DNA of 64,000 nt from Candidatus Omnitrophota bacterium (GCA_020429915.1 JAGQKV010000008.1:3338-67337); one strand, 5' to 3'; counted from the first letter of the stretch, positions 1 to 13,969 are shown. Notes: generated by a model from the letters alone, not told the origin. Made by a program: numbers and translations.

Positions 1-79
1 CGCCCTGGAACACGAAAGTGCCCCGGCACAGGGACGGCCGGAGGCCGGCACGGTCATTTACGCGCGCCGGGGAGACAGC

Positions 80-421
80 GTGGTGATTACCTTGAGGATA
101 CCGGGAATCGGGGGACTGCTCAACGGGGCCAACATCTTTCTCAACGGTTACCGCCGCGACGTGCCCTTCGGCGATATGCCGAAGTACCGTATTCATGTGC
201 GCCGCGGGGGAACGGCCAAGGTCTATAACCGCCACAATCCGGTGATGGTCGAAGGTGTCACTGTTACGCGTCAGGGAAATGATCTCACGGTGACGGTGCC
301 GCTGGACATCCTGGAGCGGCCGGAATATATCCTGGCGTGTGTGCGCGGGGGACGGACCGACGGGCCCGACACGGCCACGGCCTGGCGCGTATTGGAGATT
401 CCCGATCATGAACGCCGGTGA
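80..421 (+). CDS. hypothetical protein; start uncertain, may extend upstream of the window
   Basis: 113-aa ORF in a high-GC region. Overlaps the start of the next gene by 14 nt. No recognisable motifs. Confidence 0.3.
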   Translation: MVITLRIPGIGGLLNGANIFLNGYRRDVPFGDMPKYRIHVRRGGTAKVYNRHNPVMVEGVTVTRQGNDLTVTVPLDILERPEYILACVRGGRTDGPDTATAWRVLEIPDHERR

Positions 422-1067
422 GGATATCAAGGTCCGCGCCTACGCGCCGGGCGACCGTGACACGGTGCGGCGCATCAGCCGGGACACCGCGTTCGCCGGA
501 CTGGCGCCGCACGGCATGGGCAAGGAGGAATGGCTGGCCGACGCGCTGACGCTGTATTTTACGGATTTCGAACCGCACTGCAGCTTTGTCGCGGTCCGGG
601 GGGAGGAAGTGCTGGGCTACGTGACGGGTGCCGTGGACGGCCGCCGAATGCGCCGGGTGACGCGGCGGCACATCGTGCCCCGGTTGATCGGGAGATTTAT
701 CACGTCCGGTTTTCTCTTCGATGCCTCCCGCCGCCACTTTGTTGGCGAAGGCCTGCGGTGTTGGGTCAAAGGCGAATTCCGGCGTCCGGGTTTCCGCCGC
801 GCGTATCCCGCGGAACTGCACATCAATCTCGACGCAGGGGCGCGCCGCCGGGGAGCAGGGCGCAAGTTAATCACGGCCTTCACCGAATACGCCCGGGCGC
901 AGGGGGTGATCGGCGTTCAGGTGAGCGTGCTGTCGGACCCCGCCCGCGACTTTTTCAAAGCGCAGGGTTTTGAAGTCCTGTATCAGACCGAACGCACCTT
1001 TCTGCAAAAGACCCGGGACGAGAAGTCCCCGTGGTATATAATGGGAAAGAAACTCACAGCCGAGTGA
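408..1067 (+). CDS. GNAT family N-acetyltransferase
   Basis: Internal ATG at 408 (MNAGEDIKVRAYAPGDRD...). Acetyl-CoA-binding-like motif HINLDAGARRRGAGRKL, followed by the typical GNAT C-terminal beta strands (QGVIGVQVSVL...FFKAQGFE). Confidence 0.65.
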   Translation: MNAGEDIKVRAYAPGDRDTVRRISRDTAFAGLAPHGMGKEEWLADALTLYFTDFEPHCSFVAVRGEEVLGYVTGAVDGRRMRRVTRRHIVPRLIGRFITSGFLFDASRRHFVGEGLRCWVKGEFRRPGFRRAYPAELHINLDAGARRRGAGRKLITAFTEYARAQGVIGVQVSVLSDPARDFFKAQGFEVLYQTERTFLQKTRDEKSPWYIMGKKLTAE

Positions 1068-1152
1068 CAATATTCGACGATGTCCATTAAGCCGTATAAG
1101 ATCTTCATCTGCTCCTGATCAATGAAAAAGGGGTTATCAAGTCAGGTAAACC

Positions 1153-1695
1153 ATGCCTTTAATCGGATTTTTGCTGTTCTGCGGAGTTTGGTTCTTTTCG
1201 GTAATTATGTTTACGGTCGGAAGGCAGTCGAAGTCCTGGATAATAAAGGGATTGTTCGGCATTCCCCTGGCAGCGACGGCCATATTGACCGTTACGATAG
1301 TTATTCTTTCGGTAATCGGATTCGTTATACAATTGCATCCGCCATCAGCCTTCCGGCAAGTATTCGGGCAGTGGCCCTCCGATCGGATTACCGACATTCG
1401 TATCGAAGACAGTTGTTTTCTTGACAGTTGTCACACTTATTTGGCATTTAAGACTGACTATAGGGAATTTCAGGAACTAGTGCCCGAGGGCATGGTAAGA
1501 CTGAGTTACGAGGAATACAATGAGAATATGCCTGGATCCAATCTTCATTCACCACGGTGGTGGCTGGGTGTTAATCCTCAAACGGAGGATATCCGGTTTA
1601 TACGCAGTAATAAGAATTTTGCCTCTGAGGTGACGACTATGACGTATGATGCCGAGACGAATACCGCGCAATATTTCTATCTCGGATTGGAGTAG
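1153..1695 (+). CDS. hypothetical membrane protein (AT-rich gene, likely foreign origin)
   Basis: Two N-terminal hydrophobic helices. Codon usage and GC clearly lower than the flanking genes. Confidence 0.5.
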   Translation: MPLIGFLLFCGVWFFSVIMFTVGRQSKSWIIKGLFGIPLAATAILTVTIVILSVIGFVIQLHPPSAFRQVFGQWPSDRITDIRIEDSCFLDSCHTYLAFKTDYREFQELVPEGMVRLSYEEYNENMPGSNLHSPRWWLGVNPQTEDIRFIRSNKNFASEVTTMTYDAETNTAQYFYLGLE

Positions 1696-1722
1696 AAGAA
1701 GGCGTATTAGAAAGGAGATTTT

Positions 1723-2217
1723 ATGTACACTCCCGACGACCAGGACAAAGTGGAAATCTTGCACGACGCGCCGCAGCCGAAGTCGACGGCGACGGACCCG
1801 GTGATCATGGCACAGGAGGACAAGCTGATCCTCGCCTACTATGAGACCGGTCCGCAGGGGCCGAGTTTCGGGGCGGACGAGGTGGCGATGGTGTGGTTCA
1901 AGGGGGTCGTCTCGCACATGTTCGGCCTGCCCACCGACGAGGTGATCGGCGGCCATCCGCTGGCCGGGCGCGGGCTGGAAAAATACCACGTGCACCGGGT
2001 TGAGAATTCCTCATGGCTGCGCGCCATGGAGAAAGTCCATTCCGTGCATCCGAAACACGACAGCGAGCGGTTCCTCAAGGGGATGAACCATTACATCTTC
2101 ACCTTCCACAACTCCACCTTCGAGTGCCTCGCCGAGAGCTTCCGCTTCAAGACGCATGAGACGCATATGGAGGCGGTGAGGCCGCGCATGTTGGAGGAAT
2201 TGCAGGAGCGAGATTGA
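1723..2217 (+). CDS. hypothetical protein
   Basis: 164-aa ORF preceded by AGGAGA RBS-like sequence (GAAAGGAGATTTTATG). Confidence 0.5.
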   Translation: MYTPDDQDKVEILHDAPQPKSTATDPVIMAQEDKLILAYYETGPQGPSFGADEVAMVWFKGVVSHMFGLPTDEVIGGHPLAGRGLEKYHVHRVENSSWLRAMEKVHSVHPKHDSERFLKGMNHYIFTFHNSTFECLAESFRFKTHETHMEAVRPRMLEELQERD

Positions 2218-2225
2218 GTGCGAGG

Positions 2226-2360
2226 GTGGTGAGTGATGTGTGGTGAGTGATGATATAACAGGCGCAGGTCGTAATACGACCATCACTCAGCACTCACCAC
2301 TTCACGCGCGGCATGGAAACATCACCCACGCGCATCGTGAAAACATCACCCACGCGCACG
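2226..2360. repeat. heptamer-periodic hairpin element, copy 1 (GTGATG type)
   Basis: Left arm GGTGGTGAGTGATGTGTGGTGAGTGATGAT (2226-2255) faces right arm CATCACTCAGCACTCACCAC (2281-2300). Loop contains the perfect 7-1-7 palindrome GGTCGTAATACGACC. Two downstream direct copies of AACATCACCCACGCGCA precede the ATG at 2374. Confidence 0.7.
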
Positions 2361-2373
2361 GAGAAAGGCAAAC

Positions 2374-3135
2374 ATGACCAAATACCCACTCCAAATACTC
2401 ATCCAACTGCTATTCACCCTAGTGATGTACGCCATGGCAGTACTATTCTTCGGCATCTCGCTGATGCCGGGGCTTGCGATTCTACTGAAGACCTGGGACG
2501 CGGTACACACCGCGTCGCTGTGGCAGAAGACGATGTGCCTGGGCTTCGCGCTGTCCGCCGGGTTTTTCCTGTTCGGGATCACGCTGGTCCTTTTGGTGGG
2601 GACGTTCCGGATGGTGTCGGGCCTGAAGCTCAAGGAGGGCGAGTACAAGATGCACGAGCTCGAGGCGTTGAAGTGGAGTTTTCTGAGCTGTCTGTATTCG
2701 ATGATCCGTTATACCTTTATCGACTTTATCCTGCTGACGCCGTTTGCGAATCTGCTGTTCCGGATGCTCGGGGCGAAGATGGGCAAGAACGTGGCGATCA
2801 ATTCGTCGTTCGTGTTCGACCATTCGCTGCTGGAGATCGACGACGGCGCGGTGATCGGCGGCGGCGCGATCATCGACGCGCACATCTTCGAGCGCGGGAA
2901 GCTCATACTAAGGAAGGTCAAGATCGGCAAACAGGCCCTGCTGGGCTCGCACTGCACCCTGATGCCGGGCTGTGAAATAGGGGACAAGGCGATCATCTCG
3001 GCGAACGCCTTGTTGCTCAAAGATTCAAAGGTGGAGCCGAGGGATATTTGGGTTGGCATCCCGGCGGAGTCTCTGCGCGCTAAGAAGCGCGCGGAGAGAA
3101 ATAAGCGCAAAGAGCGGGAGGGTGATGATACTTGA
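2374..3135 (+). CDS. hexapeptide-repeat (left-handed beta-helix) acyltransferase with N-terminal membrane segment
   Basis: C-terminal imperfect hexapeptide repeats (NVAINSSFVFDHSLLEIDDGAVIGGGAIIDAHIFERG...IGKQALLGSHCTLMPGCEIGDKAIISANALL). N-terminal 100 aa hydrophobic. Confidence 0.6.
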   Translation: MTKYPLQILIQLLFTLVMYAMAVLFFGISLMPGLAILLKTWDAVHTASLWQKTMCLGFALSAGFFLFGITLVLLVGTFRMVSGLKLKEGEYKMHELEALKWSFLSCLYSMIRYTFIDFILLTPFANLLFRMLGAKMGKNVAINSSFVFDHSLLEIDDGAVIGGGAIIDAHIFERGKLILRKVKIGKQALLGSHCTLMPGCEIGDKAIISANALLLKDSKVEPRDIWVGIPAESLRAKKRAERNKRKEREGDDT

Positions 3136-3223
3136 GTGATGATTTGACAGGCACAGGTTGTAATACGACCATCACCCAGCACTCACCACTTCTTCCACTC
3201 CATAGAACCATCACCCACGCGAA
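3121..3223. repeat. heptamer-periodic hairpin element, copy 2 (GTGATG type)
   Basis: Left arm GGTGATGATACTTGAGTGATGAT, right arm ATCACCCAGCACTCACCAC. Loop ACAGGCACAGGTTGTAATACGACC is nearly identical to the copy-1 loop. Downstream ACCATCACCCACGCGA lies before the ATG at 3235. Confidence 0.7.
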
Positions 3224-3234
3224 ATATACGCACC

Positions 3235-3699
3235 ATGAGCGACCTGATACAAGCCAACGAAACCACTCTGAAAAAAGCCGATCTGTCCGTCCGCATACTC
3301 CAGTTTGCGATCATCTTGACCGGCATCGGCTTCACCTGTATGCTGGCTTTGATCGGGGCCGCGCAGAAGTGGCCGGCATTGCTCCTGGCGGCCGGTTACA
3401 TCGTTTATCTGGTCAACGAACGCTCCGCCTTTGATCGTATCCGGGATGATATCACCCGGGAACCCGCGGCGGCCTGCAAACTCCGGTGCGTCAAACGCAC
3501 ACTGACCCAGGCCCTGGTCGGCGGGCCGGTGGTCATCGCCTTTATCGCCCTGTTCGTGCACAGCGTCAGTGATATCCCGGCGTGGACCGTGGCGCTGCCG
3601 CTGGCCGTGATGTGCGCGGCGGACTTCACCGCGGCACAGGTCCTGTTCAGAAAATTTGACGACGGTACCATTCAACCCTATCAGCAAGAGGAATCATAA
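3235..3699 (+). CDS. hypothetical membrane protein
   Basis: 154 aa with three or four predicted transmembrane helices. Stop overlaps the next start (ATAATG). Confidence 0.5.
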   Translation: MSDLIQANETTLKKADLSVRILQFAIILTGIGFTCMLALIGAAQKWPALLLAAGYIVYLVNERSAFDRIRDDITREPAAACKLRCVKRTLTQALVGGPVVIAFIALFVHSVSDIPAWTVALPLAVMCAADFTAAQVLFRKFDDGTIQPYQQEES

Positions 3700-4445
3700 T
3701 GCACATCGGCCGCACCCGTTTTCGCCGGCAAATCCTGACCGAGTTCGCCGCACCCAAGGACAAAAAGTCCGGCAAGGTTGTGATCTTTTGCGCAGGCGTG
3801 CCGGGCGCACCGGAGAAGGACGAGGTCCTCGAATACTTTGCCAGGAAGGGCTACTGGGCGTTCTTTCCGCGCTACCGCGGCTGCTGGGAGAGCCACGGAA
3901 AGTTCCTCAAGCATTCGCTCGAGTACGATGTCTTTGCCGTGATCGACGCGATGCAAAAGCGATTTAAAGATTTCTGGACGGACAAAAGTTACCGGGTGAA
4001 ACCGGAACATATCACTGTGGTGGGTTCGAGCTTCGGCGGGCCGGCCGCGATTCTGGCCACGCTGGATGAACGCGTGGACAAAGCGGTGTGCATCTCGCCG
4101 GTGGTCGACTGGGTCGCCGAGGACAAGGACGATCCGCTGGAGAATCTCTACAAACTTATCCGCAAGGCCTTCGGCGGGGTGTACCGCATCGACAAGAAGA
4201 ACTGGAACCGGCTGAAAGACGGGGATTTTTACAATCCGCTGCCGCACATCGACAAATTCGATAAAGACAAGATCATGATCTTCCACGCCGAAGACGACAC
4301 CATCGTCAAATACAAACCCGTGGCCAAATTCGCCGACAAACTCGGCTGCAAGCTGACCACCTTCGAAAAGGGAGGCCACCTGTCGTCGTCATTATTATGC
4401 AGCGCGGCGAGTTTCCGTAAGGTGGAGCGATTTCTACACAAATAA
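3699..4445 (+). CDS. alpha/beta hydrolase fold protein
   Basis: Nucleophile-elbow GxSxG (VVGSSFGGPAA). Typical size and layout for a dienelactone-hydrolase or esterase-like enzyme. Confidence 0.6.
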   Translation: MHIGRTRFRRQILTEFAAPKDKKSGKVVIFCAGVPGAPEKDEVLEYFARKGYWAFFPRYRGCWESHGKFLKHSLEYDVFAVIDAMQKRFKDFWTDKSYRVKPEHITVVGSSFGGPAAILATLDERVDKAVCISPVVDWVAEDKDDPLENLYKLIRKAFGGVYRIDKKNWNRLKDGDFYNPLPHIDKFDKDKIMIFHAEDDTIVKYKPVAKFADKLGCKLTTFEKGGHLSSSLLCSAASFRKVERFLHK

Positions 4446-4483
4446 GGGCTCGCCCATCACAACCGACAGGACATAAGGAAACA

Positions 4484-5209
4484 ATGCGCCAAATTTACGT
4501 TTTTTCAGTCATGATCCTGGTCGCCAGCATGTGCCTGGCCCGCGCGGACACCGTCCACGCCCAGGAGAAGCGCCGGGTGTTTCAGCACCGGGGGGTGTGG
4601 GTGGAGAATATCGGCGTCTGTCCCACGGAGATGACCGACCGGATTATCGATCACTTCAAAGAAAAAGGCCGGCAGGTGCGGCTGATCAATATCAATCCAT
4701 ACAACCCCAACCCAAACAAAGACTGCAAACAGGATTCGCTCTTTTTGGTGCATTTGAAAAAACGGGGCACCGAGTTCCCTTACGAAGGGTACACGCGCTA
4801 TATCGAACGCAACGGCAGTTTTATTGAGCATTCGTGGGGGGAAGTCGAGGCCCTGCCGTTTCATCTCGATGATCCGCTGCAGCGTGTCTTTGAGGTTATC
4901 AAGGGCAGCACGTTTATGACGCAGTTGAATTCACACGGCGTCCTGCTGCAAGACGGAACCCGGATCGGCAAGAATGACATGAAGGCAATCATCGAGGAAA
5001 TCCACATGGCGTACCGGCCGGGCATCGAACGGCACATCGACGGGCCGGTCCGGCTCAAGGAAGACACCGGCGGTCTGGTGACCGCTTCCTTTATGACGGG
5101 GAAGGGCCGGCCGGTATGGTACAAACTGAGCAAGGAAGCGGGGTGGTGGAGCATCCTGGACAGCTCGGAGAGCCGCGGCCGGGTGCAGATGCCGTTGCCG
5201 GGAAGTTAG
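4484..5209 (+). CDS. hypothetical secreted protein
   Basis: N-terminal signal peptide (MRQIYVFSVMILVASMCLARADTVHA). Confidence 0.5.
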   Translation: MRQIYVFSVMILVASMCLARADTVHAQEKRRVFQHRGVWVENIGVCPTEMTDRIIDHFKEKGRQVRLININPYNPNPNKDCKQDSLFLVHLKKRGTEFPYEGYTRYIERNGSFIEHSWGEVEALPFHLDDPLQRVFEVIKGSTFMTQLNSHGVLLQDGTRIGKNDMKAIIEEIHMAYRPGIERHIDGPVRLKEDTGGLVTASFMTGKGRPVWYKLSKEAGWWSILDSSESRGRVQMPLPGS

Positions 5210-5232
5210 TCGAAGCGGATTCCGTCGACGTG

Positions 5233-5365
5233 TTTAGTGATGATACAGGATGCGAGGGCATAAGGACAGTCCTGCGAAGGTGCCAGTACATTTCAACCCG
5301 CACCTGATACGATCATCACTCAGCACACATCACTCCTCCCGCAGCCTGAAGACATCACCCGGAGG
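5233..5365. repeat. heptamer-periodic hairpin element, copy 3 (GTGATG type)
   Basis: Left arm TTTAGTGATGATACAGG, right arm CCTGATACGATCATCACTCAGCACACATCAC. Inner palindrome AGGACAGTCCT. Downstream GACATCACCCGGAGG. Confidence 0.65.
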
Positions 5366-5371
5366 CAATTC

Positions 5372-5402
5372 TTGACTTTTTCCGATCCCCGGGGGCTATT
5401 AG
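5372..5402 (+). promoter_or_regulatory. candidate promoter (TTGACT - 19 nt - TATTAG) with embedded palindrome CCCCCGGGGG
   Basis: Read directly. Spacer is longer than optimal. Lies between hairpin copy 3 and the ATG at 5418. Confidence 0.25.
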
Positions 5403-5417
5403 TGCTATTCTAGTAGC

Positions 5418-5726
5418 ATGCGCATGTACCCATGCCCCTCCTGCCAACAAGACGGCATCACCTGGTTCGGCCGCCGGTATTCGGTCAAGCCGATGCCCAC
5501 CCAGTGCCGTCATTGCAAACGCCATTTCTATCCCAAGCGCCGCGCCGACAAATATCCCCGGGAACTGATCGTGATGGAAGTCCTGTTTTGGGCGGCGTTT
5601 TTGCTCGGTGTCGGATTCAAATTCATCGGCTTCTGGCGCGGCGCCCTCCTGCTGGCCGCCTACGCCTGGCTGAGCGGGGTGATTGCGGAGAAAGTGACGT
5701 ATATGGTGCCAGGTGGCGAGGAGTAG
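5418..5726 (+). CDS. small zinc-ribbon membrane protein, hypothetical
   Basis: Two CxxC pairs (CPSCQQ...CRHCKRH) followed by two hydrophobic helices. Confidence 0.45.
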   Translation: MRMYPCPSCQQDGITWFGRRYSVKPMPTQCRHCKRHFYPKRRADKYPRELIVMEVLFWAAFLLGVGFKFIGFWRGALLLAAYAWLSGVIAEKVTYMVPGGEE

Positions 5727-5735
5727 GGATCGGTG

Positions 5736-5846
5736 ATTTGTGATTTGAACAGTTTTCCAAAGTAAGTTGGGATTTCACTCATAAATTTTATCCTAATTCC
5801 AAATTGGCCCAACGGGAGTAATTCCCAATCACTAATCACCAATCCC
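5736..5846. repeat. heptamer-periodic hairpin element, copy 4 (GTGATT type)
   Basis: Left arm GGGATCGGTGATTTGTGATTTG, right arm ATTCCCAATCACTAATCACCAATCCC. Loop carries AGTTGGGATT and TTGGCCCAACGGG. Confidence 0.65.
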
Positions 5847-5902
5847 TAACAGGCCTCAAAGTCCGCTATATGCTATACTATATCCACACCAAGGAGCCTG
5901 AT

Positions 5903-6331
5903 ATGCGTTCATATTTGATATTACTCGCCGTAGTGAGCCTGTGCGCCGGCTGCGCGACGATGCATGAGCCGGAACTGACTGCGGACCAGGTCAGGCAGAT
6001 CGATCTGGCAACAGGCGACCAGACGGCCACGGTGCTGGTCAAGGCCCGGCCGGCCGGACAGCAGCAGCTGACGACGTTTTATCAGATCGATATTCCGGAC
6101 CTCGAACCGGTCCTCGTCTTTAAGGAAAGCAATACCGTGCTGCGGCTCGACGCGGGCACGGTCCCGGTGACGATCACGGCGGTGACCGGCAAGGACAAGT
6201 TCGCGGCCCGCGGTGACTTCTTCGGCAAACCCAGCCGCCGCGTTCTCAACCTCAAACCCGGCGACCGCGTTATCTTGGAGTACACGGGACCGTATTGGAT
6301 GGGGGATTCTGGCAGGCTATACGCGAAGTGA
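5903..6331 (+). CDS. hypothetical lipoprotein
   Basis: Strong RBS AAGGAG 6 nt before the ATG at 5903. Lipobox LCAGC. The upstream in-frame ATG at 5870 lacks an RBS. Confidence 0.5.
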   Translation: MRSYLILLAVVSLCAGCATMHEPELTADQVRQIDLATGDQTATVLVKARPAGQQQLTTFYQIDIPDLEPVLVFKESNTVLRLDAGTVPVTITAVTGKDKFAARGDFFGKPSRRVLNLKPGDRVILEYTGPYWMGDSGRLYAK

Positions 6332-6347
6332 GAGTCAGGGGGGTGAG

Positions 6348-6517
6348 TTGGGATTGGTGATTAGGGATTGGGGATTTGGAGATTGGACCGTTACTCAATG
6401 CAGCGATTTGGGGGCGGTCGCCATTCCGAATGCGGATTACAAGATTGTAATCTCCACACCCACGGCACATCCTGAAAGCAAACTGTTCAAATCCCCAATC
6501 ACAAATCACTAATCCCC
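6348..6517. repeat. heptamer-periodic hairpin element, copy 5 (GTGATT type)
   Basis: Left arm GTTGGGATTGGTGATTAGGGATTGGGGATTTGGAGATTGG (five 7-bp units), right arm CAAATCCCCAATCACAAATCACTAATCCCC. Loop contains the perfect palindrome GGATTACAAGATTGTAATCC. Confidence 0.7.
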
Positions 6518-6543
6518 AGTAAGCTCTATTCAAAACTATCCGC

Positions 6544-6978
6544 ATGACCCTACAGCTACATCCGACATTTCTACAATTCCTCCCCCACTTCTGGCAAAAC
6601 TACTATCTCGCCACCCCGCTGTTCGTGGTGCTCGACGCGATTTTCGGCATCAGTCTGCGGATTCCGTTTCTCGACAACGCGCCTGTGCTAAAATACATTT
6701 ACTACGCGATGATTTTTTGCTTCGGCCTCGTGATACGCCGCTGGCCGGACACGGCCAAGGGGATTTCGCTGGCCGAATGTTCGGTGTGCGTGACGCTGAC
6801 CTGCGTCGGCTTTTTGGTCCCGCTGTACTGTCACGACTGGAGCCTGGAGGCGATCGAGCACGCGCGGGATTATTACAACTGGAAAACGATTACCAACTTC
6901 GCGGTGACTGGCGGGTTGTTGTATTATTGGTTTTATCAGGCGCAGATTAGATTTAAAATTAACGGTACTGTGGAATGA
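6544..6978 (+). CDS. hypothetical membrane protein
   Basis: 144 aa with four predicted transmembrane helices. Moderately AT-rich. Confidence 0.45.
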   Translation: MTLQLHPTFLQFLPHFWQNYYLATPLFVVLDAIFGISLRIPFLDNAPVLKYIYYAMIFCFGLVIRRWPDTAKGISLAECSVCVTLTCVGFLVPLYCHDWSLEAIEHARDYYNWKTITNFAVTGGLLYYWFYQAQIRFKINGTVE

Positions 6979-7098
6979 ATGATGGTATGGCTTGCATGGG
7001 CGAATGTTAGGTACGATTTTCTCTCATTAAACTGAATTTATAATTGAACCGGTTGTTCTACTGTGACGCCTGGTTTAAATTCGACTCAGTAAGGCTTT

Positions 7099-7578
7099 AT
7101 GAACAATCAGGAGATTAAAAAGGAAATAAACGCGTTTGTGCTTTTGATTGAACACGGCGCCGGAAGTTCAGTCGAGAACTTCAAGGAACTGCTACGTGTG
7201 CTCGACGCTTTGGCATTGGCAATACATTATGTGAAATATACCTACGACGAAAATGAATTACCCGATCCACCCCGGAGGAGTTACGAGGATGACCGGAAGC
7301 TGGCGACTGAGCGATTTCCTGATTTTGGTCATTACAACCGTGTACTCAATGTCGTGGAAAAATTAGGGCACCCAGATTTCGGAATGGGTGACGCTTTCGA
7401 TGATATAACGGATATTTATGGAGAAATGAAAATGGTACAGTGGCGATGGGACCATAATGGTCCGGATGATGCCTTGTGGTGTTTTAGCGACATGTATGGT
7501 TTTCATTGGAAACGGCATTTAAGAAACTTACAGCTCTATTTGTGTGAATGGATGGACTCAGATGGCGACGGAAAGTAG
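7099..7578 (+). CDS. hypothetical protein (AT-rich, acidic, Trp-rich; immunity-protein-like)
   Basis: 159 aa. Visibly lower GC than its surroundings. No enzymatic motifs. Confidence 0.45.
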   Translation: MNNQEIKKEINAFVLLIEHGAGSSVENFKELLRVLDALALAIHYVKYTYDENELPDPPRRSYEDDRKLATERFPDFGHYNRVLNVVEKLGHPDFGMGDAFDDITDIYGEMKMVQWRWDHNGPDDALWCFSDMYGFHWKRHLRNLQLYLCEWMDSDGDGK

Positions 7579-7996
7579 ACTTTTGTTTGTCGATTTACAG
7601 AACGATGAAGACGCCATGCATATTGCCGTGTGGGCGGCCAACGGTAATTTTCAGGGGATGCAGGATATCTATATTTACCGGGAACAGCTGAATGACTGGG
7701 CCTGCGAGCTGACTGAATTCGGAAAGACACCCCAAGACAAGGCGGTCTTTGAATACGGCAGCGACGATCCCAACTTTTATGCCCGGCTGCGCCTGACCGC
7801 CTTCATCTACGAATCCCGGGGCGCCTCTGCGCTGGAGGTGTTGATCGACAATCATTCCGAAAGCCCGTACCAATGCCGGGTGGAATTCTGTATCTTCTGC
7901 GCCCCGGCCGAACTCAATGAATTAGGCGCGATGATTCTCGATTGGGACACCGGTAAGAACCTGATGATGGAATGGACCGTGGAGAATTCGGTGTGA
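7562..7996 (+). CDS. hypothetical protein (acidic; immunity-protein-like). Start is either 7544 or 7562
   Basis: ORF 7544-7996. Starting at the second ATG (7562) avoids most of the overlap with the upstream gene. Confidence 0.4.
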   Translation: MATESRLLFVDLQNDEDAMHIAVWAANGNFQGMQDIYIYREQLNDWACELTEFGKTPQDKAVFEYGSDDPNFYARLRLTAFIYESRGASALEVLIDNHSESPYQCRVEFCIFCAPAELNELGAMILDWDTGKNLMMEWTVENSV

Positions 7997-9387
7997 AGAG
8001 GGCCGTGATCATCATCTTGGGCGTGTGCATCCTGTTCGGGGCGCTGGCCGTTACGCGCAATCCGTACAACCGCGATTGGACGCGCGGTGAACTCAGTCAC
8101 GTGGTGGCTTACAATCTGTGCACCACCGGAAAAATGTTCCCCGACGCCCCGTACGTCGCGCGGCCGCCGGGCTACATTTATTTTATCGCCGCGGTGTTCT
8201 CCGCGTCCGAATTTCTAGCCCCGCAATTTTGCTTTATGGAGACGCCGGAAGGTCATGTCCCGGTGAAAACCAATTTGCTGGTCGCGCTCTTCATCGCGCA
8301 GATATTCGTCCACGCGGCGAACGCCGTCCTTCTTTATTTATGGGCAGGCAGGTTGATGGACCGGCGGATGGCGCTGGTGATCGCGTTGTGTTTCGGCACG
8401 AGCGTCTACTGGTTGTTGCAAATCGCGTCGGTCCATTATGCCGTATGGCATCTTTTCTGGGTGCTTGCGGCCGGATATACCTGGACGCTGGCCTGGCAGG
8501 AACGCGAGCGCTCCCTGATGATGGGGCTGAGCGGACTTCTGTGGGGAATCGCCACGCTGGTGCGTCCGGTGACGCTGTTGTTGCCGTTGTTCGCCGTCCC
8601 GGCGGCCGTGATCGCGGGCCGGGGGGACAAACACTGGGTGATCCGTTTCACCCTGCTGATCATTCTGGGCATGGCTGTGTTCATCGGGCCGAACACGCTG
8701 AGGAATTACCGGCTGACCGGCCGCTGGATTCCGGTCAACGCACAGGCCGCGGCGGCGCTGTGGGGCGGGACCGAACCGCATCCGGGAATCTCTCCCAAGC
8801 ACTATTTCTGGCCGCGGCTGCTGCCGGAATTCGAGCGGATCTATCGCGGCGTGACCGGCGACAATTATACCTATGCGGGTTATGTGCGGCACAACCTCGC
8901 TCTGGAAGATGCCTTCCGCCGTGAGGCGTGGCGCAATATCCGGGAACGGCCCGGTGTTTACGCCGGAAATGTCCTGACAAATTTAAAACTCTTCGCCGTG
9001 GGTGTCGACTCCGGAATCCTGAACGGGTATCTGGCCCGCAGACATGGGGAGGACAGAACGGCGACGACGCGGCCTTTCGACGCGCTAATGATTTTACTGA
9101 CGGTGCTGGCCGGACTGGCGGGGTACGCGGCGTTACGGGCTCGGGATACCCGGCTGCTGGTCCCGGCGGCGGTCCTGTTGTGCTACGGACTGGGCCATGC
9201 CCTGACTTATCTGGACATCAATTATTATTATTTCAAGCAGCCGTTCCTGTATCTGGGGGCGGGTTATCTGCTCAGCCGGTTGTGCTGTTCGTCCGACCGG
9301 CCGGGAGCGGGGTGGCGGATCGCGGGATACGTCATGACGGGCGCCGTGATTTGTGTAACGGCGATGTCCTGGAGGATATTCTTCTAG
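7993..9387 (+). CDS. polytopic membrane glycosyltransferase candidate (ArnT/PMT-like, GT39/GT83-type)
   Basis: About 12 transmembrane helices. PPGYIYFIAAVF-type motif near the first loop. GTG start at 7993 with GGAGA RBS; an alternative ATG start lies at 7972. Confidence 0.45.
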   Translation: MKRAVIIILGVCILFGALAVTRNPYNRDWTRGELSHVVAYNLCTTGKMFPDAPYVARPPGYIYFIAAVFSASEFLAPQFCFMETPEGHVPVKTNLLVALFIAQIFVHAANAVLLYLWAGRLMDRRMALVIALCFGTSVYWLLQIASVHYAVWHLFWVLAAGYTWTLAWQERERSLMMGLSGLLWGIATLVRPVTLLLPLFAVPAAVIAGRGDKHWVIRFTLLIILGMAVFIGPNTLRNYRLTGRWIPVNAQAAAALWGGTEPHPGISPKHYFWPRLLPEFERIYRGVTGDNYTYAGYVRHNLALEDAFRREAWRNIRERPGVYAGNVLTNLKLFAVGVDSGILNGYLARRHGEDRTATTRPFDALMILLTVLAGLAGYAALRARDTRLLVPAAVLLCYGLGHALTYLDINYYYFKQPFLYLGAGYLLSRLCCSSDRPGAGWRIAGYVMTGAVICVTAMSWRIFF

Positions 9388-9506
9388 GAGGTCCGGCGGA
9401 CGGACCGTTACCGTCCCATATAATTGCTGTCACTTTTCACCGGCATATCACTTCAAAGTATTTTTAAAACTTTCCTCACCCGGCGATATTTCAGGGCCAT
9501 CATCCG

Positions 9507-10442
9507 CTAGTCATCATCCTCTGTCGTACTGAATAAAGCCCAGATCGGCCGGTGATCCGACACTGCCAGTTTGGCGCGGTTGTCGTCGTTGCCGAACATG
9601 GTTTCGTCGAAATTCCACACGCCGACCTGGCCGGTGTACTCGCGGACGTAGCGGGTCTCGAACCAGAAATTGTCGTAGAGACTCGTATCGGTGACGGTGG
9701 TGCGGACCGGATCGTTCAGCAAGGCCGTCATCGTGGGCAGGCGGTTCAGGTTCGACCAGCCGCGGTCGTCGGGCCCGAAATTGAAGTCGCCTAACAGGAT
9801 GATATCCTGTTCGCCGGCATCGGCGTTTTGCGCGTATTCATAGACCTTGGCGAGGTGTTCCAGTTCGGGACGGCGCTCGGATTCGCTTTTACCGTAAAGC
9901 AGGTGAATGGTCAGCAGGGTGAAGTCAAAGGCCCCGGCGCGGAAGGAAGCGAAATAGGGTTCGCGGATGAACTCGTCGCGCTCATCCGGATACAGCTGTC
10001 CGGGCGTTGTCTGGGCGACCTTGTCGGCACGGTAGAGAAAGGCGTAGCGTTCCTTGACCCCGCGGCCGACCGGCGCGCTGATGTCGTAGGCGGCCGGATA
10101 ACCGCGGCGTTCAAGCAGGGCCACGGTGCGGCGCAGGACGTCTTCGTCGCGCAGTTCCTGGATGGCGGTTATGTCGCACGGTTCGAGCAGATTTGTGATA
10201 TAATCCAGCTCGTTGTCGTCGCGGCTCTTATTGGAGAAGACGCGGATGTTGAAGGAACACACCCGCAGGTCGTCGCCGCCCGCCATGGCGGTGACAGGCG
10301 CGGGCGCCGAAGCGGTCCGTTGTTCCAGAAAGCGCTCGATATCCGCGCGCGGCGCAAAGGCCAGACCGATGGCGGCAATCAGCGCCAACAGCAATAAGGC
10401 GTCGGTCAGTCGGGATGATTTCGGTTTGGGACGACGGGGCAT
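9507..10442 (-). CDS. secreted endonuclease/exonuclease/phosphatase (EEP, DNase I-like) family protein
   Basis: Signal peptide or TM at the N-terminus. EEP catalytic motifs include LRVCSFNIR, ILLGDFN and the C-terminal SDHRPIWA. Confidence 0.65.
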   Translation of the reverse strand: MPRRPKPKSSRLTDALLLLALIAAIGLAFAPRADIERFLEQRTASAPAPVTAMAGGDDLRVCSFNIRVFSNKSRDDNELDYITNLLEPCDITAIQELRDEDVLRRTVALLERRGYPAAYDISAPVGRGVKERYAFLYRADKVAQTTPGQLYPDERDEFIREPYFASFRAGAFDFTLLTIHLLYGKSESERRPELEHLAKVYEYAQNADAGEQDIILLGDFNFGPDDRGWSNLNRLPTMTALLNDPVRTTVTDTSLYDNFWFETRYVREYTGQVGVWNFDETMFGNDDNRAKLAVSDHRPIWALFSTTEDDD

Positions 10443-10512
10443 GGTGCTTTTTATTGTAAGTTACGTAAGGCATGAAGGAAGGAAAAAGGTGATTATTTTG
10501 ACTATCCGCTTG

Positions 10513-10659
10513 GGTGCTGAGTGATGTGTGATGAGTGCTGATCGCGGGGGACGAACTGACATATTTGCCGATACACCGAATACGACCATCACCCATCACC
10601 GCATGGACTGCTTGAGTACATCACTCATCACCCTTAAATCCAATCATCACACCCGGAGG
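10513..10659. repeat. heptamer-periodic hairpin element, copy 6 (GTGATG type)
   Basis: Left arm GGTGCTGAGTGATGTGTGATGAGTGCTGAT, right arm CCGAATACGACCATCACCCATCACC. Then ACATCACTCATCACCC and ATCATCACACCCGGAGG precede the ATG at 10665. Confidence 0.7.
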
Positions 10660-10664
10660 AAAAT

Positions 10665-11027
10665 ATGAAATACATCGACGGCTTTCTAATCCCCGTCCCC
10701 AAAAAGAAACTGGACGAATACAAAAAACTCGCTCGCAAGGCGGGGAAGATCTGGATGGAATATGGCGCGCTGGATTATGTGGAATGTGTTGCCGACGACG
10801 TGAAGAAGGGGAAATGGACGTCGTTCCCGCAGGCGGTCAAACAGAAGGACGGCGAGACCGTTGTCTTTTCCTATATCATCTACAAATCCCGCGCCCACCG
10901 TGACCGGGTTAATAAAAAGGTCATGGCCGACCCGCGCCTGATGGCGATGTGCGACCCCGGCAACATGCCCTTCGACGGCAAGCGAATGATGTGGGGGGGA
11001 TTTAAGTCGATGGTGGATATGGCGTGA
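10665..11027 (+). CDS. DUF1428-like small protein
   Basis: About 120 aa. N-terminus MKYIDGFLIPVPKKKLDEYKK resembles DUF1428 (YbaA-like) proteins. Assignment is from memory only. Confidence 0.45.
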   Translation: MKYIDGFLIPVPKKKLDEYKKLARKAGKIWMEYGALDYVECVADDVKKGKWTSFPQAVKQKDGETVVFSYIIYKSRAHRDRVNKKVMADPRLMAMCDPGNMPFDGKRMMWGGFKSMVDMA

Positions 11028-11030
11028 TAA

Positions 11031-11195
11031 GGGATGAGTGATGTGTGATGAGTGATGATCGCAGGAAGCGCTGGTCACAGGGAGTGTTGGTCGCAGGGAG
11101 TGTTGCTCGTGGGAAGTACTGGTCAAATGTACCGAATACGATCATCACTCACCACTTCATACACTTCCTGACGACATCACTCACCACCCGGGAGA
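11031..11195. repeat. heptamer-periodic hairpin element, copy 7 (GTGATG type)
   Basis: Left arm GGGATGAGTGATGTGTGATGAGTGATGAT, right arm ACCGAATACGATCATCACTCACCAC. Loop holds the 16-nt direct repeat GTC(A/G)CAGGGAGTGTTG. Downstream GACATCACTCACCACCCGGGAG precedes the ATG at 11200. Confidence 0.7.
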
Positions 11196-11199
11196 ATAA

Positions 11200-11763
11200 A
11201 TGAGAAAACCAATATTACCGATAACCGCTATCCTGATCCTCCTCGCGCACACGCACGCCCGCGCGCAAGTCGCCATTACAACAGTCCCCACCCAACCACC
11301 TTCCGGGCAAACCGACGGGCAGCATCAGGTGAAACGCAATTTCTCGCACCGCGACCTGCCGCCCTTGAATCTCGATATGTTCGCGCTGAGCACGCAGACC
11401 GGCGGAGAGTTTTACTTTTGGGGGGAAGGCGAGTTCGGTTCCGAGGCGGCGAGCAAGGTGATCGCCGAATCGGTCCTGTCGACACAGACGCTCCTCTATA
11501 AGTACGGGGATATCGACGGGACATGCGAGATCCCGTTTTACGTGGAGAAGTACAAGTACCACTTTACCTTCTTCACCGGTATTCAATCCAAAGACCGTAT
11601 CGAATTCATCCAACCCGACGGCAGGGTCCTCAAGGACGGCGAAGGCGTGATCGTTTATCCCTTTCAACGTATGCTCATCGCCACGGTCAACGCGCCGCAG
11701 GCGGGGGAGTGGACCATCCGACTGTCGGGCAGGGGGAAGTATTTGGTTTCAGTGAGAAAGTGA
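11200..11763 (+). CDS. hypothetical secreted protein
   Basis: Signal peptide MRKPILPITAILILLAHTHARA. Confidence 0.5.
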   Translation: MRKPILPITAILILLAHTHARAQVAITTVPTQPPSGQTDGQHQVKRNFSHRDLPPLNLDMFALSTQTGGEFYFWGEGEFGSEAASKVIAESVLSTQTLLYKYGDIDGTCEIPFYVEKYKYHFTFFTGIQSKDRIEFIQPDGRVLKDGEGVIVYPFQRMLIATVNAPQAGEWTIRLSGRGKYLVSVRK

Positions 11764-11777
11764 ACTTCAAGGGGCGA

Positions 11778-11887
11778 GAGTCGGGATACGTGATACGGGA
11801 TATGTGATACGAACAGTCTGCCGTCAGGAATATTTACGGAGTTTACCTAAGAACTTGGCCCAACGGGCCGTCAACGTATCCCGACTG
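11778..11887. repeat. heptamer-periodic hairpin element, copy 8 (GTGATAC type)
   Basis: Left arm GAGTCGGGATACGTGATACGGGATATGTGATACG (four 7-bp units), right arm CGTATCCCGACTG. Loop contains TTGGCCCAACGGGCC, shared with copy 4. Confidence 0.65.
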
Positions 11888-11918
11888 GCCATCCTATCGC
11901 TCCTGAAAGGTTTTAACA

Positions 11919-12923
11919 TTGGTGTTATTGATTGTTAATATTATCATCGCCCTCGTCCTCGCCGGCGGTTGGCTGTTCATGCTGCTGATCCCCGTCGGTA
12001 TCTGCGCGCAGACTGAGGAGCCGATGGATCTGAAAGATTTTAAGCCGCACGTCTTTCGTTGTCCGAAATGCGCCAAGGAATGGGCGCCGCTGCGGCTGCT
12101 CAAACACGTGACCTTTGATCACAAGGAACGCATTGAACGCAAGGTGATCCCGCGGATCGCGGACTGCAACGAATGCGGTGGCCGCGGGGTCGTCTCCGGC
12201 GGAATGACGTCCATGCCGCACGCGTTCGAGTTCGACCGGGAGATGCCCGTGCAAACCACGGTCGGCTGTTCGGTGTGCGGCGGGTCGGGCCGGGTGCCGC
12301 ATCCCGACGGCGATGAAGTGCGGGTGCGGAAGATCCGTTCCTGCAAACACCGCTATACCTATCAATGTCTGTCCTGCACCGGGAAGTTCGACAGTGAATA
12401 CCGGGTGAATTGGCACAAACCGAAACCGTCCAAGCCGCATGATTCGACTTACGACGGCGTCATTCAGATGGGCATGGCCCGGGGGATGGCCGGTGTTACG
12501 GCCCTGGTGTTCGGAGCGGCACTGTATACGGTTATCCGCACGGCGATGTCCACGTATCCGGAATATCCGTTGAAAGAAGATATGATGTGGGCCCTGAATC
12601 GGCTCCTGTTCAAGGGGGCGGGCGTGACGCTGTTGGCGATTCCCGGCGGAGCGCTGTTCGGATTGGTGTGCGGTGTGATCAATCTGCCGCTGGCCCGGTT
12701 TTTGAAACGCAAAGGATTGCCAAACGCGCTGGTCTGCGGTACAGTGGCGGGTACGGGATTGCTGGCCGCTGCCGATGCGTTTTTTCTCACTGGGCAGGTC
12801 CCGGTGTACGCTGCGGATCCCCAGGGCTGGGTGACTGCCTACGGAACCGCCGCCGCCCTGGCCGCGACGGCCTTGCTGTTGGGGCAGGGAGTGTGGGCTC
12901 TGGCGCAGAGATGGAATTTATAA
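11919..12923 (+). CDS. hypothetical membrane protein with three zinc-ribbon-like CxxC pairs
   Basis: TTG (11919) or GTG (11922) start. N-terminal TM, then CPKC/CNEC/CSVC/CLSC pairs, then about four C-terminal transmembrane helices. Confidence 0.45.
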   Translation: MVLLIVNIIIALVLAGGWLFMLLIPVGICAQTEEPMDLKDFKPHVFRCPKCAKEWAPLRLLKHVTFDHKERIERKVIPRIADCNECGGRGVVSGGMTSMPHAFEFDREMPVQTTVGCSVCGGSGRVPHPDGDEVRVRKIRSCKHRYTYQCLSCTGKFDSEYRVNWHKPKPSKPHDSTYDGVIQMGMARGMAGVTALVFGAALYTVIRTAMSTYPEYPLKEDMMWALNRLLFKGAGVTLLAIPGGALFGLVCGVINLPLARFLKRKGLPNALVCGTVAGTGLLAAADAFFLTGQVPVYAADPQGWVTAYGTAAALAATALLLGQGVWALAQRWNL

Positions 12924-12924
12924 G

Positions 12925-13028
12925 TGATGTGTGATGAGTGGTCCCTCGACTCCGCTCGGGATTGAACTTGCCGATCATTGCAGATGGTGAGCGAAGTCGA
13001 ACTATGAGGGGTGATCGTATTCGGTGCG
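12925..13028. repeat. heptamer-periodic hairpin element, copy 9 (GTGATG type, right arm inverted)
   Basis: Left arm GTGATGTGTGATGAGTGG. The distal arm GGTGATCGTATTCGGTG is the reverse complement of the CACCGAATACGATCACC motif seen in copies 6 and 7. Confidence 0.55.
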
Positions 13029-13048
13029 TCGGCTTCCTAAAAAGAACT

Positions 13049-13058
13049 TGTATAATTT
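13049..13058 (+). promoter_or_regulatory. candidate extended -10 element (TTGTATAAT) upstream of the hydrolase gene
   Basis: TG directly 5' of TATAAT. No good -35 element. Confidence 0.25.
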
Positions 13059-13110
13059 TCCAGCGAACAGCACTCAACCCTCACGCACGACTTGGCCGCA
13101 TCACCCCAGG

Positions 13111-13944
13111 ATGAAGATGAAGCAAACAGTATTCCCGATAAGCGTTATCCTATCCACCGCTATGCTTACCGGTTGCGCCTCACTCAATCCGGTTGCAAAC
13201 TTGGAGTACGGGCTGATCTATATTCCTTCCCGGGAGATGAAGGCGGATCCGCAGAGCGCGGGACTCGCGTACGAAGATGTCTATCTGAAGACGGCCGACG
13301 GGGTGCGGCTCAACGGCTGGTTTCTCAAGGGGCGCGGCGACACGGCGACCATGCTGTTTTTTCACGGCAATGCCGGAAATATCTCGCACCGGATGGAGCG
13401 GCTCGCGCTCTTTCGCGATATGGGTTTGAATGTGTTCATCATCGATTACCGCGGCTACGGCCGCAGCAAGGGCCGGCCAACCGAAGAGGGGCTGTATCTT
13501 GACGGATTCGCCGCCTATGATTACCTGCTCAAACGGGACGATGTCGATCCCGACCGGATCATCGTCTACGGCGCGTCACTGGGCGGGGCGGTGGCCGTGG
13601 AGGTCGCGGCCAAGCGGCCGGTGGCCGGACTGATCGTGGAGGCTTCGTTCACGTCCATCCCGGATGTGGCCAAGCTCCACGTGCCGTGGGTGCCGCGGTC
13701 GTGGATCGGGACACGGATGGATTCCCTCACCAAGATCCGCGCCATCGAGGCGCCGAAGCTGATCCTGCACAGCTCCGACGACGAGGTCATCCCGTACCGG
13801 ATGGCGGAAAGCCTGTTTCGCGCCGCGCCGGAACCGAAATCTTTTATCCCACTGAACGGCAATCACGCCTACGCCTGGCAAACGTCCGGCGACCGTTTTG
13901 TGAAGGGGATCGAAGCCTTTTTGATCTTTCACCGGTTTATGTAA
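13111..13944 (+). CDS. alpha/beta hydrolase (BAAT/ABHD-like) lipoprotein
   Basis: Start at MKMKQTV preceded by CATCACCCCAGG. Lipobox LTGC. HGNAGN oxyanion region and the GASLGG nucleophile elbow. Confidence 0.65.
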   Translation: MKMKQTVFPISVILSTAMLTGCASLNPVANLEYGLIYIPSREMKADPQSAGLAYEDVYLKTADGVRLNGWFLKGRGDTATMLFFHGNAGNISHRMERLALFRDMGLNVFIIDYRGYGRSKGRPTEEGLYLDGFAAYDYLLKRDDVDPDRIIVYGASLGGAVAVEVAAKRPVAGLIVEASFTSIPDVAKLHVPWVPRSWIGTRMDSLTKIRAIEAPKLILHSSDDEVIPYRMAESLFRAAPEPKSFIPLNGNHAYAWQTSGDRFVKGIEAFLIFHRFM

Positions 13945-13969
13945 ATCCGTTTAACGAAGCAGCAGACTT

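What the first reader, a model, noticed from the sequence alone, without database searches (positions are those of the whole stretch)
2256..3170. Hairpin copies 1 and 2 have near-identical loops, implying recent duplication or transposition
The copy-1 loop ATAACAGGCGCAGGTCGTAATACGACC and the copy-2 loop TTGACAGGCACAGGTTGTAATACGACC differ at only a few positions. Both contain the 7-1-7 palindrome GGTCGTA-A-TACGACC (perfect in copy 1, one mismatch in copy 2). Other copies keep only the right half (AATACGA(C/T)CATCAC). The inner palindrome could be a recombinase or nuclease recognition core.
Basis: seen in the sequence. Interest (0 to 1): 0.5.

Follow-up and report, generated by a model that had tools for sequence, protein, structure and literature searches.

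The report
Twin intergenic hairpin repeats flanking a gene
The two look-alike hairpins are real copies of a lineage-specific family of intergenic hairpin repeats in an uncultured Omnitrophota bacterium, but the small palindrome inside them shows no sign of being a recombinase site.

Summary
The two 27-nt loops (2255-2281, 3144-3170) differ at 4 positions. E1 and E2 are by far the most similar hairpin pair in the window (76/89 identical; local score 113, next best 58, shuffles at most 25).

E1 and E2 are paralogous copies of a 105-125-nt intergenic module. Its 5' arm is made of heptad repeats (GTGATGA type), its 3' arm is the complement, and a CATCACCC box lies further downstream. The copies are not recent: both already exist, with the same paralog-specific differences, in a relative 94% identical in DNA.

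The 7-1-7 palindrome occurs at chance frequency (6 in the window, 4.7 expected). It is broken in a divergent E1 allele and in a third E1-like copy in another relative. No rearrangement breakpoint falls on it.

attC core motifs, an integrase and any Rfam match are absent. Relatives show fast hairpin turnover at orthologous gene junctions. One 1.9-kb indel has both ends inside the heptad arms.

Most likely this is a REP/MITE-like hairpin repeat family reshuffled by recombination between arms, and probably gene-end punctuation in the mRNA. Similar heptad-armed hairpins, always G-rich arm first, occur in many phyla.

The parts
2212..2358 (.). E1 module, the whole intergenic hairpin repeat after the 164-aa ORF. 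Left heptad arm 2224-2254, loop 2255-2281, right arm 2282-2300, distal CATCACCC boxes 2319-2334 and 2343-2358.
   Evidence: Fold z -3.5 to -4.6. TRF finds period 14 at 2226-2252.
2267..2281 (.). Inner 7-1-7 palindrome GGTCGTA-A-TACGACC, which forms the apical mini-stem of E1.
   Evidence: perfect. (chance frequency). (not conserved in homologous copies).
2303..2358 (.). 24-nt tandem duplication (2.3 copies) of the distal box. It is specific to this lineage; L116 and L117 have one copy.
2374..3135 (+). Hexapeptide-repeat acyltransferase gene bracketed by E1 and E2. Its last codons and its stop codon lie in the E2 left arm.
3112..3224 (.). E2 module. Left arm pieces 3120-3129 and 3133-3143, loop 3144-3170, right arm 3171-3189, distal box 3208-3223.
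3156..3170 (.). Inner palindrome copy 2, GGTTGTA-A-TACGACC, with one T.G position.
5228..5362 (.). E3, same family. The left arm is truncated and the right arm is complete. A 4.47-kb block present in L116 abuts its left arm.
5720..5848 (.). E4, a hairpin with GTGATTT/GGGATCG heptad arms.
   Evidence: z -4.1; z -4.8.
6338..6518 (.). E5, a hairpin with GGGATTG heptad arms and the twin of E4. In L126 an E1/E7-type hairpin occupies this site.
10510..10650 (.). E6, GTGATGA family with CCGAATACGACC at the loop edge. It is conserved in L126.
11028..11192 (.). E7, the twin of E6. Its loop holds a 16-nt tandem repeat. Its left arm is one breakpoint of the 1.9-kb indel against L126.
11778..11905 (.). 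E8, a hairpin with CGTGATA/CGGGATA heptad arms.
   Evidence: z -3.6.
12920..13107 (.). E9/E10. Left arm 12920-12940 (the second breakpoint of the 1.9-kb indel), a 64-nt core hairpin at 12941-13002, and an inverted degenerate copy of the AATACGA right half at 13004-13033.

Best explanation
E1 and E2 are two paralogous copies of a lineage-specific extragenic hairpin repeat in a Candidatus Omnitrophota chromosome.

Each copy fills the space between the stop codon of one gene and the ribosome-binding region of the next. It has these parts:
- a G/T-rich 5' arm built from 7-nt repeats (GTGATGA-like);
- a variable loop whose edges are conserved (ACAGG... on the left, ...AATACGAYC on the right);
- a C/A-rich 3' arm complementary to the first;
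- a further CATCACCC box about 20-25 nt downstream.

The family is gained, lost and swapped at gene junctions between related genomes. Its repeated arms serve as substrates for recombination that deletes or inserts gene blocks. The E1/E2 likeness is common descent, by local duplication or conversion, that is older than the split from the nearest sequenced relative.

The inner palindrome is a by-product. It is a local inverted copy of the conserved right loop edge, which became the tip of a shortened loop.

Inferred and not shown: in the transcript the 5' arm stops ribosomes in all three frames. The long stem-loop then marks the end of the cistron, acting as a 3' end barrier, a processing site or a termination site.
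For: Module anatomy and homology.

Heptad periodicity: TRF periods 7 and 14 in the arms. Period-7 clusters occur only at 2284-11810 in the 64 kb.

Folding beats shuffles for E1, E4, E6, E7, E8 and L126b.

Age: E1 and E2 orthologues in L116 keep the paralog-specific differences.

Turnover between relatives:
- L125 keeps the gene order but has no such hairpins.
- In L126 an E1/E7-type hairpin sits where the window has E5.
- L126 has an E1-like copy where the window has none.
- L126 has an E2-like copy in place of a gene.

Arms as recombination substrates: window 11043-12930 is absent in L126, with the crossover inside the shared GTGATGAGTG of E7L and E9L. The right edge of the 4.47-kb L116 block lies in the E3 left arm.

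Twin bracketing: 8 of 11 hairpin regions have an immediate neighbour as their best match. Four reciprocal pairs each bracket a single gene (permutation P about 0.004).

Stop codons in all three frames occur in 11 of 18 entry arms, against 0.8% of random 35-mers.

The same architecture after stop codons is seen in many phyla. It is described for GGGAATC heptamers in Xanthomonas (PMC4692102).
Against: No transposase or recombinase that could move the copies lies in the 64 kb. The only one nearby is an IS30 fragment at the contig end.

Only one contig of the genome is available. The genome-wide copy number and distribution are therefore unknown.

No target-site duplication or clean single-copy insertion was found.

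Loops vary much more than in typical MITEs.

The RNA role rests on sequence features only:
- E2, E3 and E10 fold no better, or barely better, than shuffles.
- The bottom strand folds better for E2, E3 and E6, and E7 has the stronger z-score on that strand. This does not favour a sense-strand RNA.
- No U-tract terminators are present.
- Strains 99.9% identical show no change in the hairpins, so the dynamics are slow.
Confidence: 0.6

Rival explanations
1. The hairpins are attC-like recombination sites of an integron-type or unknown hairpin-specific recombinase. The inner palindrome is its recognition core and cassettes are exchanged at that point.
For: Short, co-oriented and mostly uncharacterised ORFs are each followed by an imperfect hairpin with a variable loop. 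Gene content varies between relatives. The bottom strand folds better in several copies. One indel has both ends in hairpin arms.
Against: No complementary RYYYAAC...GTTRRRY pair occurs in the first 16 kb on either strand, and the window total is at chance level.

No integrase was found in the ORFs scanned across the 64-kb window, and none is called in the 3.4 kb upstream.

The palindrome is not conserved and is not statistically unusual.

Breakpoints lie in left arms or outside hairpins, never at the palindrome.

Gene order is conserved down to 50-76% protein identity in a relative without hairpins.

The crossover lies within a 20-nt direct repeat. Ordinary homologous recombination explains that.
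Confidence: 0.07
2. The copies are true miniature transposable elements (REPIN or MITE type). A transposase encoded elsewhere in the genome moves them in trans, and E1 and E2 are two insertions.
For: The elements are long imperfect hairpins in intergenic DNA. They show presence or absence at orthologous junctions. Copies with full-length homology lie at non-orthologous sites. An IS30-family element is inserted in one heptad array.
Against: No GTAG-type REP signature is visible in the E1-E3, E6 and E7 arms on reading them. No target-site duplications were seen. Loop lengths range from 27 to more than 100 nt. No Y1/RAYT or other transposase was found in the window's scanned ORFs. In the window the copies are confined to one 16-kb gene cluster. 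A metagenome scan for the family's right arm gave only chance-like hits.
Confidence: 0.2
3. The heptad arrays are functionless products of replication slippage and template switching in spacer DNA. The E1/E2 likeness is plain local duplication with no role.
For: Heptanucleotide repeats are the commonest long simple repeats in bacteria (PMC4679880). Arms decay by indels: the E3 left arm is truncated in the window and the E3 right arm in L116. E2, E3 and E10 fold poorly. A relative does without the hairpins.
Against: The class has a strict polarity, G-rich array first in 37 cases and never the reverse. It is placed tightly at stop codons. It is conserved at an orthologous Nitrospira site, where the one-sided changes in the heptad arms are G.U-compatible. 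Entry arms are enriched for three-frame stops.
Confidence: 0.13

Closest known systems
Heptameric repeat pairs of Xanthomonas (GGGAATC) and Nostoc (GGGGA(C/T)T, the STRR type), Rehm et al. 2015, PMC4692102
   Same: Both are tandem 7-nt units in intergenic DNA. The G-rich array lies on the coding strand within 0-50 nt of, or overlapping, the stop codon. The C-rich array lies just upstream of the next gene. Xanthomonas has 70-75 convergent pairs able to form stem-loops. The function is unknown.
   Different: The E1/E2 family units are GTGATGA-like and lack the four G-tracts needed for a quadruplex. Only E5 (GGGATTG) resembles the published units. The loops here carry conserved edge motifs and there is a distal box. 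The family is lineage-specific in Omnitrophota.
REP / BIME / REPIN elements (PMC3116915)
   Same: Both are extragenic imperfect palindromes forming long hairpins between genes. Both occur as families with within-genome evolution and are thought to act on mRNA ends.
   Different: No GTAG-bearing REP unit was seen. The arms are heptad arrays, not palindromic REPs. No RAYT gene is in view. In the window the copies are clustered in one gene cluster.
Integron attC sites (PMC2727003)
   Same: Both are imperfect hairpins with a variable terminal part at the 3' end of co-oriented ORFs. Sites within one array resemble each other.
   Different: The R''/R' core motifs are absent. No integrase is present. 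There is no conserved pattern of extrahelical bases. Rearrangements between relatives do not occur at a fixed crossover point.
TAACTGA heptamer direct repeats of Beggiatoaceae and cyanobacteria (PMC4679880)
   Same: Both are intergenic heptamer arrays whose forward reading gives stop codons in all three frames, so they sit at gene ends.
   Different: Those are direct repeats, mostly just upstream of start codons, with almost no inverted partner. Here the arrays come as inverted pairs.

Membership tests
Integron attC site | Complementary core motifs R'' (RYYYAAC) and R' (GTTRRRY) at the base of the stem | tested here: not met
   There are no such pairs in 1-16000 on either strand. The whole window has 4 against 3.1 +/- 2.8 in shuffles. 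E1 has no GTT at all.
Integron attC site | R and L boxes separated by an unpaired central spacer, with 2-3 conserved extrahelical bases on the R''-L'' arm (PMC2727003) | tested here: inconclusive
   Predicted folds show bulges and internal loops. Their positions differ from copy to copy, and no shared G/T extrahelical pattern is visible.
Integron attC site | Integron integrase and attI nearby, or a cluster of bona fide attC sites | tested here: not met
   Pfam scans of ORFs across the window found no tyrosine recombinase. The upstream 3.4 kb holds APH, an inositol phosphatase, PIG-L and an IS30 fragment.
Integron attC site | Cassette gain and loss with the crossover at a fixed point of the site | tested here: not met
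   Breakpoints against L116 and L126 fall as follows: two away from any hairpin, one in the E3 left arm, two in the E7 and E9 left arms, and none at the palindrome.
Integron attC site | Position directly after co-oriented, promoterless ORFs | tested here: met
REP/REPIN | A 20-40-nt palindromic REP unit with a conserved 5' tetranucleotide (GTAG in known groups), paired head to head | tested here: not met
   The arms are tandem heptads. I saw no GTAG in the E1-E3, E6 or E7 arms when reading.
REP/REPIN | Tens to hundreds of copies across the genome and a cognate RAYT gene | not testable with these tools
   Only one contig of the genome is available. Within it the copies are confined to about 16 kb. 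No RAYT was found in the window's scanned ORFs.
MITE | Terminal inverted repeats, target-site duplication and a uniform internal sequence | tested here: not met
   Inverted arms are present. No duplication is seen at E3 compared with the hairpin-free junction in L125. Loops range from 27 to more than 100 nt with unrelated centres.
Heptameric inverted repeat pairs (Rehm 2015) | Tandem heptamers, with the G-rich array on the coding strand at the stop codon and a convergent partner array | tested here: met
   Description.
Heptameric inverted repeat pairs (Rehm 2015) | Four or more G-tracts able to form a G-quadruplex | tested here: not met
   The E1 and E2 arms (GTGATGA, GGTGAGT) lack runs of GGG x 4. 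Only E5 has them.
Intrinsic terminator | Short G+C-rich stem followed by a T run | tested here: not met
   None of the terminator-like hits is one of the long hairpin stems.
Any Rfam RNA family | A match to a curated covariance model | tested here: not met
   Searches gave no match, even at E <= 1.

The most novel reading that the evidence does not exclude
The heptad-armed, G-arm-first hairpin is a general and still unnamed gene-boundary element of many bacterial phyla. In gene clusters like this one it would double as the working site of a non-integron way of shuffling genes. Recombination between hairpin arms would insert and delete single genes, leaving each newcomer bracketed by twin hairpins, as seen for APH, the hexapeptide transferase, a lipoprotein and DUF1428.
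Probability: 0.15. Interest if true: 0.75.

Novelty: new variant of a known kind. Interest (0 to 1): 0.4.

Why it matters
The specific claim matters little. The palindrome is not a recombination core, and the two copies are ordinary paralogues of a repeat family.

The family itself is more interesting. It links three things that are usually treated apart: heptanucleotide simple repeats, extragenic hairpins, and gene-content change in an accessory gene cluster.

The same design turns up in Nitrospirota, Acidobacteriota, Bacteroidota, Chloroflexota and others. In each, the stop-codon-rich G/T arm comes first, then a loop, then the C/A arm, with strict polarity. I found no published function or name for it beyond the Xanthomonas GGGAATC description.

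If these hairpins prove to set transcript ends or to guide gene gain and loss, they would be a widespread piece of bacterial genome punctuation that annotation pipelines currently ignore.

Tried and rejected
- Rfam, at gathering and at permissive thresholds: nothing.
- Sigma-70 promoter and U-tract terminator scans: nothing at the hairpins.
- attC core search: nothing.
- Metagenome scan for ATACGAYCATCACYCANCAC: 18 hits, almost all with no hairpin context, so judged chance matches.
- Full-text search for the heptad strings: only unrelated papers. Other literature searches returned only general papers on heptamer repeats, with no function or name for this hairpin design.
- Hexapeptide-transferase homologues at 77-85% identity (L118, L122, L123, L124). 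Their neighbours are unrelated and homology starts at the start codon, so the hairpins do not travel with the gene.
- Near-identical strains L127 and L128: no hairpin differences, so there is no phase-variation-like change in heptad number.
- The L117 E1 patch: 26 of 27 differences fall within 120 nt, including five synonymous changes. I read this as import from a divergent allele or a chimeric assembly, not hypermutation.
- Strand of action from G.U against A.C mismatches: the window and the Nitrospira set point in opposite directions, so I left it open.
- E10 as a hairpin: rejected, z about 0.

Full report
**What is there**

The window comes from a Candidatus Omnitrophota chromosome. Close homologues of its proteins carry that name. 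The source contig, ena:ERZ27309210:k141_284232, ends 3.4 kb upstream of the window in an IS30-family transposase fragment.

Positions 2.2-13.1 kb hold short, mostly co-oriented genes: a GNAT, a hexapeptide acyltransferase, alpha/beta hydrolases, DUF1428 and many proteins without a family. Most of the gaps between them contain a long imperfect hairpin that starts at or within a few bases of the upstream stop codon. The other 50 kb is housekeeping: RtcB, PFK, LptF/G, Pta-AckA. It has no such hairpins.

**The observation**

Both loops are as quoted and differ at 4 of 27 positions. The 15-nt palindrome is perfect in E1 and has one T.G position in E2.

E1/E2 is the best pair among nine hairpin regions by a wide margin. 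It scores 113 (76/89 identical). The next pairs score 58 and shuffles score at most 25.

The homology is not a loop feature, though. It runs over the whole intergenic module, 105 nt at 81%, from the inner heptads of the left arm to a CATCACCC box just before the next gene.

**Anatomy**

- The left arms are tandem 7-nt units. These are GTGATGA-like in E1, E2, E3, E6, E7 and E9; GTGATTT or GGGATTG in E4 and E5; and CGTGATA in E8 (TRF).
- The right arms are the complements of the left arms.
- In the GTGATGA family the loop edges are conserved (ACAGG... on the left, ...AATACGAYC on the right), while the loop centre varies from nothing to about 75 nt.
- In E7, CGATCATCAC pairs with the end of the left arm (GTGATGATCG). 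So the right half of the 'palindrome' is part of the family consensus.
- The left half, GGTCGTA, exists only in E1 and E2. There it makes a six-pair tip on a shortened loop.
- E1, E4, E6, E7 and E8 fold significantly better than shuffles on at least one strand. E2 and E3 fold only weakly better.

**Is the palindrome special?**

No. Perfect 7-1-7 palindromes occur 6 times in the window against 4.7 +/- 1.5 in shuffles.

In L117, a contig otherwise 99.9% identical to L116 outside a 120-nt patch around E1, the E1 allele reads GGGCGCA-A-TACGATC. That has two broken pairs and one wobble.

In L126 an E1-like copy aligns over its full length with E1 but carries insertions inside the palindrome. It folds very well without it (z -5.1).

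**Age of the copies**

L116 is 94-96% identical in DNA and has both E1 and E2 with the same paralog-specific differences. E1 differs there by one base, plus a 24-nt tandem duplication in the window. E2 differs by five bases. The E1/E2 split (15% divergence) is therefore older than that lineage split. 'Recent' does not hold.

**Boundaries in relatives**

I mapped indels and junction replacements against L116 and L126.

Against L116:
- A 1368-nt acyltransferase gene is present in L116 only, with no hairpin at either edge.
- A 4469-nt MMPL-DUF1329 block is present in L116 only. Its left edge is right after a stop codon and its right edge is inside the E3 left arm.

Against L126 (84-86% identical):
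- Window 11043-12930 is absent. This block holds the E7 loop, the E7 right arm, two genes and E8. The crossover lies inside the GTGATGAGTG shared by the E7 and E9 left arms, a textbook recombination between direct repeats.
- The E5 junction carries a hairpin of the other family.
- There is an E1-like hairpin where the window has none.
- An E2-like hairpin replaces a gene.

L125 (about 77% identical in DNA, 50-76% in protein) keeps the gene order 164-aa gene, hexapeptide transferase, hydrolase, 239-aa gene, 101-aa gene. It has no heptad hairpins.

So the genes form a largely vertically inherited, if leaky, cluster. The hairpins turn over much faster than the genes. When rearrangements touch hairpins they do so in the arms, and none lies at GTAATAC.

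**A pattern around E1/E2**

E1/E2 is one of four twin pairs. For 8 of 11 hairpin-bearing gaps the best match is an immediate neighbour. The four reciprocal pairs each bracket exactly one gene: APH, the hexapeptide transferase, a 153-aa lipoprotein, and DUF1428 (permutation P about 0.004).

Unlike hairpins also sit equally close together (E3/E4, E7/E8), so proximity alone does not explain the pairs. Three readings fit and I could not separate them:
- local duplication;
- insertion of a gene by recombination with a resident hairpin;
- transfer of a gene together with both donor flanks.

Outside this clade the nearest DUF1428 homologues that carry a source name are Burkholderiales and other Proteobacteria, at about 75% identity. 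This suggests that at least this gene was acquired.

**Known families**

- Canonical attC membership fails on the core motifs, the integrase, and the crossover point.
- REP/REPIN and MITE membership fails on unit structure, target duplications and loop uniformity. Genome-wide copy number could not be tested.
- There is no Rfam match and no U-tract terminator.
- The closest published description is the heptameric GGGAATC repeat of Xanthomonas. It has 70-75 convergent pairs placed 0-50 nt after stop codons on the coding strand and has no known function (PMC4692102).
- TAACTGA repeats of Beggiatoaceae share the three-frame stop property (PMC4679880).

**A wider class**

The 18-mer AGTGATGTGTGATGAGTG from the left arms occurs in 95 DNA stretches from GTDB species-representative genomes of very different phyla. 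Its context is usually the same design.

Of 86 usable hits, 36 have a complementary arm within 200 nt downstream and 1 has one upstream. Across 611 kb, G-arrays followed by C-arrays outnumber the reverse order 37 to 0.

At one orthologous Nitrospira site the hairpin is conserved across five genomes. The one-sided changes in its heptad arms all keep pairing through G.U on the sense strand.

In the window, 11 of 18 entry arms carry stop codons in all three frames, against 0.8% of random 35-mers.

**How it most likely works**

Shown:
- A repeat family sits at gene ends.
- Its copies are paralogous.
- The family turns over between relatives.
- Its arms recombine.

Inferred:
- In the mRNA, ribosomes entering from either side meet stops in every frame.
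- The stem-loop can then form and mark the cistron end.

The strand of action is unresolved. For this family the bottom strand often folds better.

**Verdict**

The 'duplication' reading is right in kind but not in timing. The 'recombinase core' reading is not supported. This is a new variant of known extragenic hairpin and heptamer repeats. The broader class and the twin-bracketing pattern are worth a follow-up.

Noticed in passing
GTDB loci L003-L097: Heptad-armed hairpins with the same left-arm 18-mer occur after stop codons in Nitrospira, Pyrinomonadaceae, Bacteroidales, Chloroflexota, Calditrichota, Verrucomicrobiota and others. Their polarity is strict: the G-rich array comes first in 37 cases and never second.
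   Followed up: partly
L001:131-556 and 1532-1715; window 2212-3224, 5720-6518, 10510-11192: Four single genes (APH, hexapeptide transferase, 153-aa lipoprotein, DUF1428) are each bracketed by two hairpins that are each other's best match (permutation P about 0.004).
   Followed up: partly
window 5720-5755 and 6480-6515: The E4 left arm pairs with the E5 right arm over 36 nt. This includes an 11-nt inner extension (TTGAACAGTTT/AAACTGTTCAA) that the E4 right and E5 left arms lack. It looks as if one hairpin had been split by the lipoprotein gene plus a second hairpin.
   Followed up: no
L001:194-255 and window 12941-13002: A 64-nt hairpin core (85% identical) sits in inverted orientation at both ends of the 16-kb hairpin-rich cluster. 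In L126 it directly follows DUF1428.
   Followed up: partly
L001:1-137 (upstream of the window): The contig ends in the C-terminus of an IS30-family transposase. Comparison with L116 shows the IS is inserted into a CGAATAT heptad array. All assemblies examined stop at this point.
   Followed up: partly
L117:182-301 against L116:5580-5689: 26 of the 27 differences between two otherwise identical 3.3-kb sequences fall in 120 nt around E1. They include five synonymous changes in the last seven codons of the upstream gene. This is a recombination patch from a divergent allele or a chimeric assembly.
   Followed up: partly
window 11050-11109: The E7 loop contains a 16-nt tandem repeat (GAGTGTTGGTCGCAGG, 3.8 copies).
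   Followed up: no
window 5805-5817 and 11846-11858; L126 about 1640-1650: A second loop-edge motif, TTGGCCCAACGGG, sits just 5' of the right arm in E4 and E8. A related CGGCCCAACGG sits there in an L126 hairpin. It parallels AATACGAYC in the E1 family.
   Followed up: no
window 10665-11027: Outside this Omnitrophota clade the nearest DUF1428 homologues that carry a source name are Burkholderiales and other Proteobacteria at about 75% identity. This suggests horizontal acquisition.
   Followed up: no
window 17009-21043 (-) and 32891-37195 (+): Two very large ORFs (1344 and 1434 aa) have essentially no Pfam match. The first has only a sub-threshold H-type lectin hit.
   Followed up: no
L124:1322-1485: A hexapeptide-transferase homologue (85% identical) in another Omnitrophota contig is followed by a hairpin of a quite different heptad family (GTAGGAA/CTAAGAA/GTATGAA), which is again rich in stop codons. 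A second copy starts at the contig end.
   Followed up: no
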